Below, piece after piece: positions 1-4,472 of a stretch of 4,472 bases of DNA. Positions within the stretch are counted from its first letter, which is position 1, and the number at the start of each line of letters is the position of its first letter. Made by a program: the position numbers and the translations under genes. This stretch comes from a virus. Taxonomy: Duplodnaviria > Heunggongvirae > Uroviricota > Caudoviricetes. The notes under the pieces were generated by a model. It made no database searches. It was not told the DNA's origin and was given only the letters and a program-made list of their open reading frames with translations. The DNA lies in IMG/VR virus record IMGVR_UViG_2734482536_000008; one strand, written 5' to 3'.

Positions 1-25
1 GGGAAAAATATCATCAGATGGCTGC

Positions 26-378
26 TTAAAAAAAGAACAAATGGTAGTGTCCGCTATTGCCAGTACACCTCAATTGCTCTGCGGCTTCGCTCAGAGCTGG
101 CGTATGTTCCCGGCCTACTGATTCACACAGGTAATCAACGAAACCGGACACCAGTTTTCGTTCGCGAGGCGTGATCGCCCCACCGACCGGAGTCCAGTAA
201 TCGAAACCCAGTTGCAGGAGTTTGAAAAAACGCTTGTGGAATGCGTAGTTACACACACGCTTAAAGTCTGCGTGTATCCACTCACCTATTTTGATTTGAT
301 GCAGAAAATCGCAACTCTCCGGCGTCGCCGGGAGAAGTAATCCGGAAGAGGTTTGTTTGACCAGTTGTATATGTGCCA
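26..378 (-). CDS. Hypothetical prophage protein, 117 aa from the ATG at 376-378 (ORF track extends it to a TTG at 419-421)
   Basis: Open frame with no stops. The ATG at 376-378 is preceded by GGAGAAAG about 7 nt upstream on the minus strand. Reads protein-like (MAHIQLVKQTSSG...), but I recognise no family with confidence. The stop lies 25 nt from the window edge. Confidence 0.45.
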
Positions 379-417: not shown

Positions 418-705
418 TCAATCCTGCTCAAGATTGTAGATGAGTTTATTCTTCAGCAAAAGCAGAAAACCAGCCTTAAAACCAATCTCTTTCAAAACCC
501 GTAATGATGTGACAAATTCGTCCTCACGCAAAATAAAACCGTCCGTCAGAAGTCCATTACAAAAATAAAATAACACAGCACCGCTCTTCCTTTGTTGAGA
601 TTGCAAACATCTAATGCGGCAATGGCTGACAATCGCTCCATTCTCAACGCGCACAGCATAGAGGCCATTTTCACTAAAAATTTCACGCAATTCTTCGATT
701 TTCAT
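418..705 (-). CDS. Hypothetical small protein, 95 aa
   Basis: ATG at 703-705 preceded by GGAAGGA (SD-like) on the minus strand; stop at 418-420. No recognisable motif. Confidence 0.45.
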   Translation of the reverse strand: MKIEELREIFSENGLYAVRVENGAIVSHCRIRCLQSQQRKSGAVLFYFCNGLLTDGFILREDEFVTSLRVLKEIGFKAGFLLLLKNKLIYNLEQD

Positions 706-954: not shown

Positions 955-1110
955 TTACTTCCTGGATTCGTAGTCTACGAAGACAGCGACCTCCGTCTGG
1001 CCGGTTCGGATTCGTACCTCACAGAGGTCTTTCCTCGTTACCAGTGCCGTCACTATGACGGTTAAACAGATGACGATCAGGGCGATTAACATCGCCTTTT
1101 GCTGCTTCAT
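955..1110 (-). CDS. hok: Hok/Gef family type I toxin, 51 aa
   Basis: Translation MKQQKAMLIALIVICLTVIVTALVTRKDLCEVRIRTGQTEVAVFVDYESRK is near-identical over most of its length to HokD/RelF and Gef/HokC as I recall them (single transmembrane helix, conserved TRK-LCE-R-G-EVA core). ATG at 1108-1110 with AAGGAG 9 nt upstream. The specific paralog is not resolved. Confidence 0.85.
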   Translation of the reverse strand: MKQQKAMLIALIVICLTVIVTALVTRKDLCEVRIRTGQTEVAVFVDYESRK

Positions 1111-1167
1111 AGCCTGCTTCTCCTTGCCTTTCGGCATGTAAGAGGCTAACCTACATGTGCAAAGCAT
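955..1167 (-). CDS. mok: mok-like in-frame upstream reading frame, 70 codons, sharing the hok stop
   Basis: ATG at 1165-1167 opens a frame that runs into hok in the same frame, 19 codons longer. This matches the mok/hok arrangement in which mok is a 5'-extended frame ending at the hok stop, as I recall for mokC/hokC. Confidence 0.45.
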   Translation of the reverse strand: MLCTCRLASYMPKGKEKQAMKQQKAMLIALIVICLTVIVTALVTRKDLCEVRIRTGQTEVAVFVDYESRK

Positions 1168-1225
1168 GAAATTGGCCTCAGATTAATGTTAAGCGTCTTG
1201 CCGGACGCGTAATGTTAACTGGGGC
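1150..1225 (+). ncRNA. sok: Predicted Sok-like antisense RNA (position approximate)
   Basis: By analogy with hok/sok, the antisense RNA is transcribed opposite the hok leader across the mok initiation region. A weak plus-strand promoter candidate exists (TTGCCT 1124-1129, 17-nt spacer, TAACCT 1147-1152). Ends are not defined and no clean terminator was found. Confidence 0.25.
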
Positions 1226-1268
1226 TTTTCTCTATCTGCCTTTTGGTGTTCATGCCTGAAGCAGATAG

Positions 1269-1280
1269 CCTCAAGCACCC
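1269..1280 (-). promoter_or_regulatory. Predicted 5' end of hok mRNA (5' partner of the fbi pairing)
   Basis: Lies immediately downstream of the predicted -10 on the minus strand and is complementary to 884-896 (see that feature). Confidence 0.45.
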
Positions 1281-1337: not shown

Positions 1338-2024
1338 TCACTCCTTCTCTTCTTTACCGTAGTGGAGTTGACCAATTTTGATAAGAGGGCGTCCCTGAGA
1401 TTTGCGGTGTAGATTGGTATCGCGCAGAGAATACACACAGCCACAATATTCCTGCTGATAGAATTTTTCGCGCTTGCTGATTTCAATCATACGGGACGAG
1501 CCGCCCTGCTTGCGCCAGTTATAATCCCAGTACACCATGCCCGGATAATGCGCGACGGCTCGCCGCCCACAGTCGTTAACCTGCTGCATATTTTTCCAGC
1601 GTGAAATGCCCAGTGAACTGCTGATCACACTGAAACCATTTTCAGCGGCGTACAGCGCTGTCCGCTCAAAACGCATGTCAAAACACATGGTGCAACGGAT
1701 CCCTCGTTCGGGCTCCCATTCCATTCCTTTGGCTCGTTCAAACCAGTTGTCTGTGTCGTAATCAGCATCAATAAACGGCACGCCGTGTTGTTCAGCAAAG
1801 CGAATATTCTCATCCTTACGAATTAAATACTCTTTCTGAGGATGAATGTTCGGGTTGTAGAAAAAGATGGTGTAGTCGATTCCCGAGGCCTGAAGCGCCT
1901 CCATCACCTCACCGGAACATGGAGCACAGCAAGAGTGCAGTAGTAGTTTGTTTGCCCCGTTTGGGAGCTCCAATTTGGGCCGTTTGAAATCAGCAACTGT
2001 CATAAATATGTTTATTGGGGTCAT
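1338..2024 (-). CDS. queH: QueH-like (DUF208) putative epoxyqueuosine reductase, Fe-S enzyme, 228 aa
   Basis: Contains [11 protein letters not shown] near the N-terminus plus downstream CTMCF and [11 protein letters not shown] cysteine motifs, which I recognise as the DUF208/QueH signature. No obvious Shine-Dalgarno before the ATG at 2022-2024 or the in-frame ATG at 2001-2003, so the start is uncertain. Family assignment is from memory of motifs. Confidence 0.7.
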
Positions 2025-2171: not shown

Positions 2172-2528
2172 TTATTCAGTTCTGGATTTTGTCGCCCTGC
2201 GTATCCGCGCTTTCGCGTTACGCTCAATCTGTATCAGCTTTTCTATATTTCTCCGCCTTTCCTGTTCCTCCTGGCGCAATAGCCTTACATCATCTGCCAG
2301 TCTGGTTTCTCTTTTTGCCACAGAGAGCATCCAGTCAAACGGCTCCACAACCGCACCGCAGATTTTACAGCGGACCTGACGCTCTTTTTCGTCAACCCGT
2401 ACAGAGGCGTGATGGCAATATGGTCTTTCCGATGGCTCATAAAGAAAATTAACCTGATTACGAGGGTCATCCTCTTTTACCGGAAATAAAACGATATTGC
2501 TTAACTCATCTTCTGGTTTTATTTCCAT
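2172..2528 (-). CDS. Uncharacterised protein, 119 aa: putative zinc-ribbon (C-H-H ... CxxC) followed by a charged, probably coiled-coil, C-terminal half
   Basis: ATG at 2526-2528 preceded by a strong SD AAGGAGAGGAG; the ORF track's longer version starts at 2585 and abuts the upstream stop. Motif YCHHASVRVDEKERQVRCKICG, then RETRLADDVRLLRQEEQERRRNIEKLIQIERNAKARIRR. No family recognised. Confidence 0.6.
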   Translation of the reverse strand: MEIKPEDELSNIVLFPVKEDDPRNQVNFLYEPSERPYCHHASVRVDEKERQVRCKICGAVVEPFDWMLSVAKRETRLADDVRLLRQEEQERRRNIEKLIQIERNAKARIRRATKSRTE

Positions 2529-2585
2529 GCTCCTCTCCTTTGATGCGAATGCCAGCGGTAATTGAAGCCTGATAGCTAATTTCAT

Positions 2586-3008
2586 TCACAGTATCGCCTC
2601 CTGAAAATTACCCTGATAGAAAGCCAGTACACGCTGCATAGCTTCGCTCTTCCGGCACTCGCGACAGATTATATTCAGGCGCCTGTCGTAGCGGCGTATT
2701 TCTCCGTCAGGTAATGACCAGATAAGGTCCGGATCAACAACAACCGGTTTCCTCACCTTTACTCTCGAGAGTTTTTTGCGGGCGCTTTGCCAGTCCTTGC
2801 GAGCCTGTTCAGACGGGAATAAGCCGTAGCCAGAATTATATACATCACCACTTGCGACCAGTTCTATGCATAAGCGACCGACAGACGCACGACTGATACC
2901 TGTTTCATCTGACAACTGCCGAATCGTGACCCGACCGTCCTGATGCACGAGTTCCACAATTCGCGTCTTCAGTTCTTCCCGCTGTTCGGGAGTAAAAGGT
3001 TTCGCCAT
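2586..3008 (-). CDS. ren: Ren-like protein with N-terminal helix-turn-helix, 140 aa
   Basis: ATG at 3006-3008 with AGGAGG 5 nt upstream, 14 nt after the DnaC-like stop. C-terminal ICRECRKSEAMQRVLAFYQG resembles the phage lambda Ren C-terminus (FKECRQSAAMKRVLAVYG, as I recall it). N-terminal TIRQLSDETGISRASVGRL is HTH-like. The position right after the P-like gene matches lambda O-P-ren order. Confidence 0.55.
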   Translation of the reverse strand: MAKPFTPEQREELKTRIVELVHQDGRVTIRQLSDETGISRASVGRLCIELVASGDVYNSGYGLFPSEQARKDWQSARKKLSRVKVRKPVVVDPDLIWSLPDGEIRRYDRRLNIICRECRKSEAMQRVLAFYQGNFQEAIL

Positions 3009-3022
3009 AAATCCTCCTGAAA

Positions 3023-3684
3023 CTACTTAACAACCCTCGAATGGCTAACATTCGGACGCCAGCTCTCCCAGTTAAAATTCACCCAGCGCCCGNNNNNNNN
3101 NNNNNNNNNNNNNNNNNNNNNNNNNNNNNNNNNNNNNNNNNNNNNNNNNNNNNNNNNNNNNNNNNNNNNNNNNNNNNNNNNNNNNNNNNNNNNNNNNNNN
3201 NNNNNNNNNNNNNNNNNNNNNNNNNNNNNNNNNNNNNNNNNNNNNNNNNNNNNNNNNNNNNNNNNNNNNNNNNNNNNNNNNNNNNNNNNNNNNNNNNNNN
3301 NNNNNNNNNNNNNNNNNNNNNGATAGCTGCCGCTAAGTGATTCTTCCCGGTACCAGGTTTTCCGCTGAACGCAAAATTTGTACACCCGGTCATCAGTTCA
3401 TCGGCGATGGATTTCGCCTGGCTTAACGCGTATCGCTGGCCGTCGTTCTGCACCTGGTAATTCGCAAACGAGCATTTACGGTGCAACGGCTGGATGCCTG
3501 AGCGATTCAGAATTTTTTCCACCCGCAACTGGCGATTCAGGCGGTTGATCTCCTCGCTACGTTTCTGGCCTTCAGCAAGTTGCCACTCGCGCCACTCCGC
3601 TACCGTTCTGAATGGGGCGGTTACATGTGGCGGGGTCAGTCGGCGGATGCGTTCCAGAACGCCGCCTGTCGCAATATTTTTCAT
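3023..3684 (-). CDS. dnaC: DnaC-like replicative helicase loader (phage P-function analogue, AAA+ ATPase), interrupted by the N run
   Basis: N-terminal 120 aa align closely to E. coli DnaC, including NRSGIQPLH, CSF-NYQV and the Walker A motif FSGKPGTGKNHLAAAI. The C-terminal tail after the gap (GRWVNFNWESWRPNVSHSRVVK) matches the DnaC C-terminus (LWVIFNWDSYRSRVTGKEY). ATG at 3682-3684, stop TAG at 3023-3025. The two halves are in different frames across a 229-nt N run, so the true length is unknown. Confidence 0.85.
3093..3321. other. Run of 229 N (assembly gap or masked sequence) inside the DnaC-like gene
   Basis: Directly visible. Its length is not a multiple of 3, which explains the frame change between the two gene halves. 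Confidence 0.95.
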
Positions 3685-3690
3685 GGTCCG

Positions 3691-4367
3691 TTACCCCCTG
3701 AAGCCTGGCGGGATCGCACTGTCCGGCAACGAGACGGTGTTAACCTGTCGGAGCAACGTCTCAGGCCGAACACCTTTCGGCGCGAACAGGCCCTGGTATT
3801 CATTGGCGATGCTGTGTCGAATCACCTGCTCAGGTGTAAAACCCTGCTGACGGAATTTTTCCAGTTCCCGTATCGCCCCGTTAGCGCCCTGCTCCGTTCG
3901 AATCGGTTTTCGCAATGCCTGTCTGAACCGGACCCACTCATGCCAGAGTGTTTCCGGCAACCAATCGGGCAGCTCAATAGCCTCCGGCTCGAATTTTTTA
4001 GACGCTCGTTTTTGGCGAGGGGGAGATCAGTATTTAGATCTTCCTCTTCCTCTTCCTCTGGTAACGCTTTTTGATCCGTTTGTGTAACGCTGGCAGCGTT
4101 ACCTTTTCGTTTCAGTTCGCGTATTTTTGTTACTCGCTCGTTTGTAACCGCCCGTTTTTTTTAGAGCTTTTTCCGTTATGACGTTCAAAGTTAGGTAGAG
4201 AAAGCCCTCCGTCATTTTCGACCAGCCATCCAACCTGAATTAACGCATCAGCAAAACCAGACATAAAAGTGATGCGATCTATTGCACTTTTTGTAACGCC
4301 GCGAGCGTTACAATCTGCATTACCGTCTATCATTTGTTGATCCGCCCATGCCCAGAAGCGAATAACC
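3691..4367 (-). pseudogene. Phage replication-initiator/primosomal gene with DnaT-like C-terminal domain, split across three frames
   Basis: The C-terminal segment (3691..about 4026) ends NTVSLPDSAIPPGFRG and contains KFEPEAIELPDWLPE, matching the E. coli DnaT C-terminal domain (NTVSEPDSQIPPGFRG; PDWQPD). Its stop is 6 nt before the DnaC-like start, like chromosomal dnaT-dnaC. Upstream, coding continues without stops in a second frame (about 4160..3996, KKRAVTNERVTKIRELKRKGNAASVTQTDQKALPEEEEEEDLNTDLPLAKNERLK) and a third (4367..4130, ending HNGKSSKKNGRLQTSE stop). The frames change at an A8 tract (plus T8, 4155-4162) and near an A6 tract (plus 3994-3999). The 5' end is either the ATG at 4331-4333 or lies beyond the IS at 4368. 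Confidence 0.55.
4039..4059. repeat. Hexanucleotide tandem repeat (TCTTCC/GAGGAA, about 3.5 units) encoding a Glu6 linker on the minus strand
   Basis: Plus tcttcctcttcctcttcctct; on the minus strand GAG GAA GAG GAA GAG GAA in the middle frame of the replication gene. Confidence 0.5.
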
Positions 4368-4472
4368 TGAGGTAGCCTGAGTTTAACGGACACTCCTTCC
4401 TGAAATAGAATGGCATCAGAAGGAGCTAATAATGAGCAGAAAAACCCAACGTTACTCTAAAGAGTTCAAAGC
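4368..4472 (+). mobile_element. IS3-family insertion sequence, left end (IS600-like), continuing past the window edge
   Basis: A terminal TGAGGTAGCC... at 4368 with GGACAC at IR positions 21-26, the same position as in the IS3 left inverted repeat as I recall it. The orfA ATG follows 64 bp after the IR start with AGGAG 8 nt upstream, a typical IS3-family layout. Only one end is in the window, so the boundary is inferred. Confidence 0.7.
4432..4472 (+). CDS. IS3-family transposase OrfA, N-terminal 13 codons (partial, runs off the window)
   Basis: ATGAGCAGAAAAACCCAACGTTACTCTAAAGAGTTCAAAGC translates MSRKTQRYSKEFK, which I recognise as the start of IS600/IS3-family OrfA (HTH protein). Confidence 0.75.
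   Translation, partial: MSRKTQRYSKEFK

What the first reader, a model, noticed from the sequence alone, without database searches (positions are those of the whole stretch)
2172..2528. Uncharacterised 119-aa zinc-ribbon plus coiled-coil protein with a strong ribosome-binding site
It has the best Shine-Dalgarno in the window (AAGGAGAGGAG) and a clear two-part design: an acidic N-terminal region with a C-H-H ... CxxC putative zinc knuckle, then about 50 residues of highly charged R/E/K/Q-rich sequence typical of a coiled coil or nucleic-acid-binding tail. I cannot assign it to any family. Small zinc-ribbon proteins in this phage region are often regulators or inhibitors of host proteins.
Basis: seen in the sequence. 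Interest (0 to 1): 0.45.

Follow-up and report, generated by a model that had tools for sequence, protein, structure and literature searches.

The report
Uncharacterised phage zinc-ribbon coiled-coil protein
This is a real, translated 118-residue early phage gene with a small zinc-binding knot and a long zipper-like helix ending in a conserved basic patch; it belongs to a large, widespread family (also in Shiga-toxin phages such as 933W) that nobody has characterised, so its function is still a guess.

Summary
The ORF is real. It lies on the minus strand at 2172-2528 and encodes 118 aa plus a stop, not 119. An AAGGAG Shine-Dalgarno sits 6 nt upstream; it is strong but not the strongest in the window.

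Homologues show saturated synonymous change with strong amino-acid constraint (pN/pS 0.35 overall, 0.11 for residues 84-111). In-frame stops lie just upstream of the shared Met in other genera. The frame is therefore translated from this start.

Predicted architecture:
- an acidic disordered N-tail with an N-V/I-V/I-x-F-P motif;
- a zinc ribbon with ligands C38-x-H40-x13-C54-x2-C57 (H39 is not conserved);
- a 55-residue helix with a clean 3.5-residue heptad repeat across 145 relatives;
- a near-invariant basic motif, E102-R-N-x-K-A-R-I/L-R.

There is no Pfam, NCBIfam, PADLOC, PDB or Foldseek assignment beyond a generic TFIIB-like ribbon. It does match PHROG 1621, which has unknown function. 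The family has about 1,630 50%-identity clusters, always in phage early-gene arrays. It occurs in 1,828 of 5,426 complete E. coli genomes and in 933W and VT2-Sakai.

My best guess, with low confidence, is a zinc-stabilised coiled-coil oligomer that acts in trans and binds nucleic acid, or another conserved polyanionic host target, through the basic helix end. Interest is moderate.

The parts
2172..2528 (-). Coding sequence, 118 aa plus TAA stop (2172-2174). Member of PHROG 1621; RefSeq WP_001343130.1-like 'hypothetical protein'.
   Evidence: Purifying selection and a conserved start.
2530..2540 (-). Shine-Dalgarno block AAGGAGAGGAG. The first AAGGAG ends 6 nt before the ATG.
   Evidence: Most homologues also carry an SD-like sequence.
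2424..2528 (-). Acidic N-terminal tail, residues 1-35 (net charge -5). Lower model confidence; probably disordered when free.
2481..2504 (-). Short linear motif L-S-N-I-V-L-F-P (residues 9-16). N11, F15 and P16 are invariant in the enterobacterial clade. A looser form of the motif, [VILM]-[VILMAST]-x-F-[PSRTKD], was scored in 60 of 145 diverse relatives.
2343..2423 (-). Zinc ribbon, residues 36-62. Predicted ligands are C38 (2415-2417), H40 (2409-2411), C54 (2367-2369) and C57 (2358-2360), with a beta-hairpin at 43-46/51-54.
2178..2342 (-). Single long helix, residues 63-117, beginning with the conserved (D/E)-P-F-D cap (E62-P63-F64-D65 here). Heptad coiled coil with d = L77/L84/(R91; Leu in most relatives)/L98 and a = M67/V81/I95/I109.
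2196..2225 (-). Conserved basic motif E102-R-N-A-K-A-R-I-R-R111 at the C-terminal end of the coiled coil. This is the most constrained part of the protein.
2529..2588 (-). Junction with the upstream DUF977 gene. Its TGA stop (2586-2588) and a 19-codon linker are in the same frame as the target. There is no promoter- or terminator-like site between the genes, so they are probably co-transcribed.

Best explanation
Shown:
- This is a translated early accessory gene of a lambdoid (Rac-like) prophage.
- Its product has an acidic flexible N-tail, a C-x-H/C-x-x-C zinc ribbon and a 55-residue heptad-repeat helix. The last two heptads of that helix carry a near-invariant basic motif (E-R-N-x-K-A-R-I/L-R).
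- It belongs to a large, uncharacterised, phage-restricted family that moves between early regions as a free-standing cassette.

Inferred:
- The helix makes a coiled-coil oligomer, most simply a dimer. The zinc ribbon caps and stabilises one end.
- The conserved basic end is the business surface. It binds a universally conserved polyanionic target, most likely nucleic acid (DNA or structured RNA).
- The protein therefore acts in trans, early in infection or induction, on replication, recombination or transcription, or on the lysis-lysogeny decision. It is not a cis regulator of its neighbours.
- The acidic N-tail with the N-V-V-x-F-P motif either masks the basic surface or recruits a host partner.
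For: Translation and start:
- pN/pS is 0.35 overall and 0.11 for residues 84-111, with synonymous sites saturated (pS 0.8-0.9).
- In-frame stops lie 1-4 codons upstream of the shared Met in Kluyvera, Pantoea and Erwinia.
- Only this frame is open in all homologues.

Zinc ribbon:
- C38, H40, C54 and C57 are invariant in 32 enterobacterial sequences. In 60 diverse relatives C38, C54 and C57 stay invariant and H40 is His in 58 and Cys in 2. In 145 relatives C54 and C57 stay invariant and C38 and H40 are at least 90% conserved.
- The spacer is fixed at 13 residues.
- Nine of 60 relatives give sub-threshold PF08271 hits.
- Foldseek's best match is the TFIIB N-terminal ribbon.

Coiled coil:
- AlphaFold2 predicts helix 63-117 with pLDDT of about 95 or more.
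- Family-wide hydrophobic occupancy is 0.59 and 0.66 at positions a and d, against 0.07-0.15 elsewhere.
- Spectral power is 43.8 at period 3.5 and 24.5 at 3.6; every other period tested is 4.6 or below.

Basic functional surface:
- E102, N104, K/R106, A/S107, R108 and R/K110 are conserved from 33% to 72% GC contigs.
- Net charge is +5 over the last 17 residues.

Trans-acting cassette:
- Flanking genes differ between genomes. They include DUF977; ead/Ea22-like; NinG, RusA, HNH or primase upstream with Q-like downstream; and small unknown ORFs in metagenomic phages.
- In 933W it sits in a block with Ant, a DksA/TraR-like protein and an Ea22-like protein, all modulators of host transcription or lysogeny (PMC8614690, PMC7093339).
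Against: - There is no direct evidence for nucleic-acid binding, oligomeric state or zinc content.
- The basic motif shares only N-x-x-A with the bZIP signature and lies C-terminal, not N-terminal, to the zipper. Its likeness to N-protein arginine-rich motifs (N-A-K-T/A-R) covers five residues and is recalled from memory.
- In the enterobacterial clade the central heptads carry E88 and R91 at core positions, which would weaken a classical zipper.
- Conservation of almost every residue around the helix end fits insertion into a protein pocket equally well.
- No structural neighbour for the whole protein was found.
- In this window the prophage is a remnant flanked by IS600, with the early promoter region gone. 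Expression here is unproven.
Confidence: 0.33

Rival explanations
1. It is a protein-protein inhibitor or adaptor. The conserved helix end and/or the N-terminal N-V-V-x-F-P motif dock onto a highly conserved host protein, such as a replisome, RNA polymerase, protease or division component, and block or redirect it during host takeover.
For: - The N-terminal motif has invariant N11, F15 and P16 inside an otherwise variable, low-confidence tail. This is typical of a short linear docking motif.
- N-I-V-L-F loosely resembles the beta-clamp motif Q-L-x-L-F (from memory; not tested).
- Nearly all-round conservation of residues 94-111 in Enterobacterales suits a buried protein interface.
- Many small early phage proteins work this way (general knowledge).
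Against: - The motif's fourth position, which is critical in clamp-binding motifs, is variable.
- Even a looser form of the N-terminal motif was found in only 60 of 145 relatives, whereas the basic helix end is universal.
- The family spans hosts from 33% to 72% GC, so any protein target would have to be extremely conserved.
- No similarity to any known inhibitor family was found.
Confidence: 0.3
2. It is a functional partner, or detachable C-terminal module, of the ead/Ea22-like proteins. It acts with them on the lysis-lysogeny decision.
For: - In 933W-type Stx phages, ArgO145-type Stx2a phages and Enterobacter phage Tyrion, the family member starts inside or at the stop of an ead/Ea22-like gene (PF13935, E 1e-16 to 1e-40).
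- In-frame Ea22-N-terminus::target fusions exist in databases (P0002, P0260, P0268).
- Ea22 is itself a modular coiled-coil protein that favours lysogeny (PMC7093339, PMC10834534, PMC8614690).
Against: - In the window and the closely matching E. coli genomes examined it follows DUF977, not Ea22.
- In other Enterobacterales it follows NinG, RusA, HNH or primase genes.
- No Ead_Ea22 domain is seen near metagenomic relatives.
- The fusions are single-member clusters and could be recombination or annotation accidents.
Confidence: 0.15
3. It is a local regulator of the adjacent moron genes (QueH, hok/sok) or of the upstream replication genes.
For: - It lies between the replication/DUF977 genes and QueH-hok/sok in the window.
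- A family member also lies just upstream of hok/sok in 933W.
Against: - hok/sok is a self-contained type I toxin-antitoxin system.
- QueH is absent from most other contexts.
- No conserved repeat or operator-like site travels with the gene.
- No promoter- or terminator-like site flanks it.
Confidence: 0.04
4. The ORF is not a functional gene. It is a chance ORF, or sequence conserved for a DNA- or RNA-level reason.
For: ORFs of similar length occur by chance in the window. The prophage here is a decayed remnant.
Against: - Synonymous sites are saturated while the protein is constrained.
- About 1,630 family clusters are found by profile search.
- The start codon and SD are conserved.
- The other five frames are not conserved as open frames.
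Confidence: 0.01

Closest known systems
TFIIB-type / S27e-type zinc ribbon (Pfam PF08271, PF01667)
   Same: Two metal-binding knuckles flank a beta-hairpin. Like human TFIIB, it uses a Cys-His first knuckle and a CxxC second knuckle (from memory). It is the best Pfam hit (E 1.7e-4) and the best Foldseek hit (1pft, 27 residues, rmsd 1.9 A).
   Different: The score is below the Pfam cut-off (21.5 against 29 bits). The first knuckle is C-x-H, not C-x-x-C/H. There are no cyclin-like or ribosomal context domains. It is followed instead by a coiled coil. The resemblance is at fold level only.
Lambda Orf73 / TraR / DksA-like small zinc-finger proteins of lambdoid early regions
   Same: A small zinc protein with a helix, encoded among early accessory genes. 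In 933W the family member lies two genes from a DksA/TraR-like gene. Orf73/TraR reprogram host transcription by binding RNA polymerase (PMC9239242).
   Different: There is no match to zf-dskA_traR. It has no DxxDxA acidic tip and uses a CHCC rather than a C4 site. The order is ribbon then helix, with a basic rather than an acidic functional end.
bZIP transcription factors (and engineered GCN4 variants with a C-terminal basic region)
   Same: A leucine heptad zipper (L77/L84/L91/L98 in the family consensus) is contiguous with a conserved basic helical segment containing Asn, Ala and Arg.
   Different: The basic segment is C-terminal to the zipper. The signature N-x2-A-A-x2-[CS]-R is not met, since only N-x-x-A is shared. 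It carries an added zinc ribbon. No sequence homology was detected. DNA binding is untested.
Ead/Ea22-like proteins (Pfam PF13935) of lambda, P22 and Stx phages
   Same: They share neighbourhoods and are often translationally overlapped with the family member. Both are coiled-coil early accessory proteins, and natural fusions exist.
   Different: The target has no PF13935 match. Ea22 has no zinc ribbon. The two are separate genes in most genomes.
Coiled-coil plus zinc-domain regulators such as YabA (Bacillus) or HP0958/CT398
   Same: They combine an oligomerising coiled coil with a small zinc-binding domain, and they bind replication proteins (YabA) or mRNA and sigma-54 (HP0958) (from memory). 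YabA appears among weak coiled-coil hits (5dol, E 0.35).
   Different: The domain order is reversed (coiled coil first in those proteins). No significant sequence or fold match was found. Those proteins are cellular, not phage-encoded.

Membership tests
PHROG 1621 (phage protein family, function unknown) | Full-length match to the family HMM | tested here: met
   E 3e-56, residues 1-117 against profile positions 1-120 of 134. The 933W, Tyrion and Parlo paralogues also match, at E 1e-41 to 1e-59.
TFIIB zinc ribbon (Pfam PF08271) | Score at or above the Pfam gathering cut-off (29 bits) | tested here: not met
   21.5 bits, E 1.7e-4. Nine of 60 relatives hit at E<0.01, none shown above the cut-off.
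Zinc-ribbon fold (generic) | Four conserved metal ligands in two knuckles around a beta-hairpin | tested here: met
   C38, H40, C54 and C57 are invariant or nearly so, with a fixed 13-residue spacer. A predicted hairpin lies at 43-46/51-54. It superposes on 1pft. Actual zinc binding cannot be tested with these tools.
Coiled coil | Heptad (3.5-residue) periodicity of hydrophobic residues along a long helix | tested here: met
   Occupancy at a/d is 0.59/0.66 against 0.15 or less elsewhere. Power is 43.8 at period 3.5 across 145 sequences. Helix 63-117 has pLDDT of about 95 or more. Oligomeric state and orientation cannot be tested here.
DksA/TraR/lambda Orf73 (Pfam PF01258) | C4 zinc finger HMM match and a DxxDxA acidic tip | tested here: not met
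   No Pfam hit at E<0.1. There is no DxxDxA in the sequence.
bZIP | Basic region N-terminal to the zipper, with the N-x2-A-A-x2-[CS]-R signature | tested here: not met
   The basic motif (102-111) is C-terminal to the heptads (77-98). Only N104-x-x-A107 is shared.
Ead/Ea22-like (Pfam PF13935) | HMM match to Ead_Ea22 | tested here: not met
   The target gives no hit. Only neighbouring or fused N-terminal modules match.
Characterised nin-region families (NinB/Orf, NinG/Rap, NinH, RusA, Ren/DUF977, Q) | Match to the respective Pfam, NCBIfam or PHROG model | tested here: not met
   The target matches none. DUF977/'Ren-like' is the upstream neighbour. The 'RusA' name in one Serratia cluster is a clustering artefact, as the sequences are unrelated.
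Known anti-phage defence proteins (PADLOC-DB) | HMM match | tested here: not met
   0 families.

The most novel reading that the evidence does not exclude
The protein founds a large, unnamed family of phage early 'zinc-ribbon zipper' proteins. A coiled-coil oligomer presents an inverted, bZIP-like or arginine-rich basic helix (E-R-N-x-K-A-R-x-R) to DNA or RNA, or to a universal replisome or transcription component. This would be a previously unrecognised host-takeover or lysis-lysogeny factor, carried by a third of complete E. coli genomes and by the Shiga-toxin phages 933W and VT2-Sakai.
Probability: 0.2. Interest if true: 0.6.

Novelty: new variant of a known kind. Interest (0 to 1): 0.38.

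Why it matters
The gene is one of the commonest unannotated prophage genes in E. coli and Shigella. It occurs in 1,828 of 5,426 complete genomes, and the exact sequence is on at least 1,000 contigs. A paralogue sits in the Ant / TraR-like / Ea22-like accessory block of the Shiga-toxin phages 933W and VT2-Sakai.

If it modulates replication, transcription or the lysis-lysogeny decision, it could affect Stx-prophage induction and therefore toxin release.

It would also define a domain architecture with no Pfam entry and no solved structure: a CxH/CxxC ribbon, a zipper and a C-terminal basic motif. As things stand it is a well-delimited, testable hypothetical protein rather than a surprise. Phage early regions are full of such genes.

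Tried and rejected
- Sequence family searches. Pfam, NCBIfam and PADLOC gave nothing usable. PHROGs gave only families of unknown function.
- Solved structures. Searches by sequence and by profile returned only coiled-coil noise such as keratin, mitofusin and IF1.
- Foldseek. Two AlphaFold2 models against PDB and one against BFVD gave nothing at E<0.001. Only the 20-35-residue ribbon matched.
- Distant relatives. Scanning 60 of them against Pfam for an informative fused domain found none.
- Genomic context. Eleven lookups found no fixed partner gene.
- The 'RusA' annotation in a Serratia cluster was rejected as a clustering artefact.
- The 132- and 137-aa upstream starts were rejected. Homologues in other genera have stops 1-4 codons upstream of the shared Met.
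- The antisense 125-aa ORF (2075-2452, + strand) was rejected. It is not conserved as an open frame.
- DNA- or RNA-level conservation as the reason for the invariant C-terminal helix was rejected. Synonymous sites there are saturated.
- Literature. Searches for phrog_1621, WP_001343130, DUF977, 933W locus names, peptide strings and zinc-ribbon/coiled-coil prophage proteins found nothing on this family. The exo-xis modelling paper does not appear to cover it, judging from a term search.
- The search for related loci with the diverse alignment failed for lack of a conserved stretch. The genome scan then returned only close relatives.

Full report
**1. Observation**

The window carries an ORF on the minus strand from 2528 to 2172. 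It has 119 codons including the TAA stop, so the protein is 118 aa, not 119.

The block AAGGAGAGGAG lies at 2530-2540. Its first AAGGAG ends 6 nt before the ATG. Predicted pairing with the 16S 3' tail is -8.7 kcal/mol. That is strong, but DUF977 (-10.3) and ydaV (-10.7) in the same window are at least as strong. 'Best in the window' is therefore not correct.

C38-H39-H40 and C54-K-I-C57 are present. Residues 1-35 have net charge -5, and residues 102-118 have net charge +5.

**2. Is it a real gene?**

ORF length alone proves nothing. The same window has spurious ORFs of 125-164 aa. Four other lines of evidence are decisive.

- *Homologues.* 148 close homologues were found in a word-indexed search. 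An exhaustive profile search found 1,634 50%-identity clusters at E<=1e-3, of which 268 are at E<=1e-10.
- *Codon-level selection.* Codon alignments of the window gene with six homologues were analysed (Kluyvera, Erwinia x3, Photorhabdus, Pantoea). Synonymous sites are saturated (pS 0.80-0.90). pN/pS is 0.35 overall and 0.11 for residues 84-111. This also excludes a DNA- or RNA-level reason for the striking conservation of the C-terminal helix.
- *Start codon.* The Met is shared by all these homologues. In three genera an in-frame stop lies 1-4 codons upstream, which rules out the 132- and 137-aa forms found in some annotations. Most homologues have an SD-like sequence.
- *Other frames.* Only this frame is open in all nine homologues tested. 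The antisense 125-aa ORF is not conserved as an open frame.

**3. Where it sits**

The window is a fragment of a Rac-like lambdoid prophage. The gene order on the minus strand is:

1. an O-like initiator;
2. a YdaV/DnaC-like loader (partly N-masked);
3. DUF977 (PHROG 'Ren-like');
4. the target;
5. QueH;
6. hok/sok;
7. a phrog_340 ORF;
8. DUF1367.

No promoter- or terminator-like site separates the target from DUF977, so it is probably read as part of the early rightward operon.

In this particular window the fragment is bracketed by IS600 ends, at 1-72 and 4368-4472. The O-like gene carries three indels relative to an intact copy. This is therefore a decayed remnant, typical of Shigella. The exact protein sequence is recorded on at least 1,000 contigs, including S. 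sonnei.

Near-identical DNA is present in 1,828 of 5,426 complete E. coli genomes.

**4. Anatomy**

Two AlphaFold2 runs were made, with 32 and 145 aligned sequences. Mean pLDDT was 73.9 and 84.9. Both give the same topology:

- a low-confidence N-terminal tail (1-35);
- a small beta-hairpin ribbon (strands 43-46 and 51-54);
- one uninterrupted helix from 63 to 117, with pLDDT of about 95 or more over 71-110.

*Zinc site.* C38, H40, C54 and C57 are invariant in the 32-sequence enterobacterial alignment. In 60 diverse relatives C38, C54 and C57 stay invariant, and H40 is His in 58 and Cys in 2. In 145 relatives C54 and C57 stay invariant, and C38 and H40 are at least 90% conserved. H39 is variable. 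The spacing C-x-H-x13-C-x2-C is found in 127 of 139 relatives scored. Foldseek also superposes 27 residues on the TFIIB N-terminal ribbon.

*Helix cap.* The helix starts with a conserved (D/E)-P-F-D cap, which is E62-P63-F64-D65 in the window protein.

*Heptad repeat.* Across 145 relatives, strong hydrophobic residues occupy heptad positions a and d at 0.59 and 0.66. The other five positions are at 0.07-0.15. Spectral power peaks at period 3.5 (43.8), with 24.5 at 3.6 and 4.6 or less at every other period tested. Leucines fall at 77, 84, 91 and 98 in the family consensus. In the enterobacterial clade position 91 is Arg. This is a coiled coil, so the protein very probably oligomerises.

*Basic motif.* The last two heptads carry E102-R-N104-x-K106-A107-R108-I/L-R110. 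This motif is conserved from 33% GC to 72% GC contigs. In Enterobacterales the stretch N94-I-E-K-L-I-Q-I-E-R-N-A-K-A-R-I-R110 is essentially invariant in proteins that are otherwise only 45-60% identical.

*N-terminal motif.* In the tail, the motif N-V/I-V/I-x-F-P has N11, F15 and P16 invariant in the close clade. A looser form of it was scored in 60 of 145 relatives.

**5. What family?**

- Pfam, NCBIfam and PADLOC give no assignment.
- PHROGs places it in phrog_1621 (E 3e-56), with weaker matches to phrog_8538 and phrog_4865. All three have unknown function.
- RefSeq calls it 'hypothetical protein'.
- No solved structure matches by sequence or by profile beyond coiled-coil noise.
- No fold neighbour for the whole protein exists in PDB or BFVD.
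- Seven literature searches found nothing on the family.

A 27%-identical paralogue belongs to the same PHROG (E 1.7e-59). It is gene ST933Wp77 of phage 933W, and it is present in VT2-Sakai and dozens of Stx phages.

**6. Context elsewhere**

The gene behaves as a free-standing cassette within early regions.

- *Stx2a phages, ArgO145, Tyrion and 933W.* It starts inside or at the stop of an ead/Ea22-like gene. In-frame Ea22-N-terminus::target fusions are deposited.
- *933W.* The block reads Ant, DksA/TraR-like, Ea22-like, family member, hok/sok. The window has the same 'family member then hok/sok' order, with QueH in between.
- *Kluyvera, Erwinia, Pantoea and Photorhabdus prophages.* It follows NinG-like, HNH, RusA, methylase-like or primase genes. 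It usually precedes what looks, by eye and position and without a family scan, like a Q-type antiterminator.
- *Metagenomic relatives.* They lie in arrays of small unannotated early ORFs, once near RecT and once near a DnaB-type helicase and loader.
- *Cultured phages.* All those carrying it infect Enterobacterales.

There is no constant neighbour. This argues against a dedicated partner or a cis-regulatory role, and for a trans-acting function on something common to many hosts.

**7. Mechanism**

*Shown:* the gene is translated; it has a zinc-ribbon signature and a heptad coiled coil; the basic helix end is under the strongest constraint; it is a mobile early cassette.

*Inferred (my preferred reading, about one in three):*

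- The helix forms a coiled-coil oligomer.
- The zinc ribbon caps and rigidifies the N-terminal end of that helix.
- The conserved basic end binds a universal polyanionic target, most simply DNA or structured RNA. The geometry would resemble a bZIP with the basic region on the other side of the zipper, or an arginine-rich motif.
- The acidic tail could mask this surface or recruit a host factor.

*Weaknesses:* the bZIP signature is not met. The likeness to N-protein arginine-rich motifs is five residues, recalled from memory. Polar residues sit at alternate a positions. All-round conservation would equally suit a protein pocket.

*Rivals:*

- The main rival, about equally likely, is a protein-protein inhibitor or adaptor that uses the N-terminal motif and/or the helix end.
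- A third reading ties it to Ea22-like proteins and the lysis-lysogeny decision.
- Local regulation of QueH or hok/sok is unlikely.
- A non-functional ORF is unlikely.

**8. Comparison and novelty**

It works like other small zinc-containing early accessory proteins of temperate phages, such as Orf73/TraR, Ogr/Delta, Com and Ea8.5. It is a member of none of them; the Pfam scan matched no such family, and only DksA/TraR was examined feature by feature.

The architecture is a C-x-H/C-x-x-C ribbon, a zipper and a C-terminal E-R-N-x-K-A-R-x-R motif. It has no Pfam entry and no solved structure. I rate it a new variant of a known kind. It is catalogued but uncharacterised.

**9. Verdict**

Interest is moderate (0.38). 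The gene is very common, and it occurs in medically relevant Stx phages. However, nothing in the evidence points to an unusual mechanism.

Noticed in passing
window 1-72 and 4368-4472: Both ends of the window are 100% identical to ends of IS600 copies. The right end begins the IS3-family OrfA (MSRKTQRYSKEFK). The 4.3-kb prophage piece is therefore a remnant bracketed by two IS600 elements, as is typical of Shigella, and it has lost its early promoter region.
   Followed up: partly
window 3691-4393 (minus strand): The O-like replication initiator is a pseudogene here. Relative to an intact copy (L001) it has a 10-bp deletion at 4018, a 6-bp TCTTCC insertion at 4039-4044 and a 2-bp insertion in a T-run at 4155-4156. 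Its N-terminus is cut off by IS600. The indels lie in a repeat-rich stretch that looks like the origin iterons.
   Followed up: partly
window 2529-2588 (minus strand): The DUF977 gene, its TGA stop, a 19-codon linker and the target ORF all lie in one reading frame. Several database entries encode a 278-aa DUF977::target fusion in which TGA has become TGG (P0255, P0256, P0262, P0264). I did not examine whether low-level TGA read-through has any meaning.
   Followed up: no
window 955-1280 (minus strand): This is a complete hok/sok type I toxin-antitoxin locus: HokD-like toxin (Pfam E 1e-22) and sok RNA (Rfam RF01794, 117 bits, 1105-1280). A phrog_1621 gene lies just upstream of hokW/sokW in phage 933W too, so the two may travel together. 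In the window QueH is inserted between them.
   Followed up: partly
window 1338-2024 (minus strand): A prophage-borne QueH (epoxyqueuosine reductase, Pfam E 1.9e-65) has no Shine-Dalgarno-like sequence before either candidate start (2024 or 2003). It follows a 147-bp gap after the target. PAPS-reductase-like genes recur a few kb from family members in other phages (ArgO145, Tyrion, Parlo, L028). A link to nucleic-acid or tRNA modification was not explored.
   Followed up: no
window 3094-3321: A run of 228 Ns masks the middle of the ydaV/DnaC-like loader gene.
   Followed up: no
L009 (Collinsella MAG), L013 (Ursidibacter contig), cluster member WP_214150725.1 (Campylobacter): Copies of this E. 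coli prophage gene, 95-98% identical, appear in assemblies of unrelated genera on very short contigs. This is most likely contamination rather than horizontal transfer.
   Followed up: no
L031:2295-2765 (phage 933W, ST933Wp77): The annotated start of the 933W paralogue is probably 25 codons too far upstream. The Met that aligns with the family start is at L031:2370. It overlaps the stop of the ead/Ea22-like gene and has a strong SD (-11.6 kcal/mol).
   Followed up: partly
window 418-705 (minus strand): A 95-aa ORF between hok/sok and DUF1367 matches only phrog_340 (unknown function, E 6e-20). It is a second uncharacterised small gene in the window.
   Followed up: no
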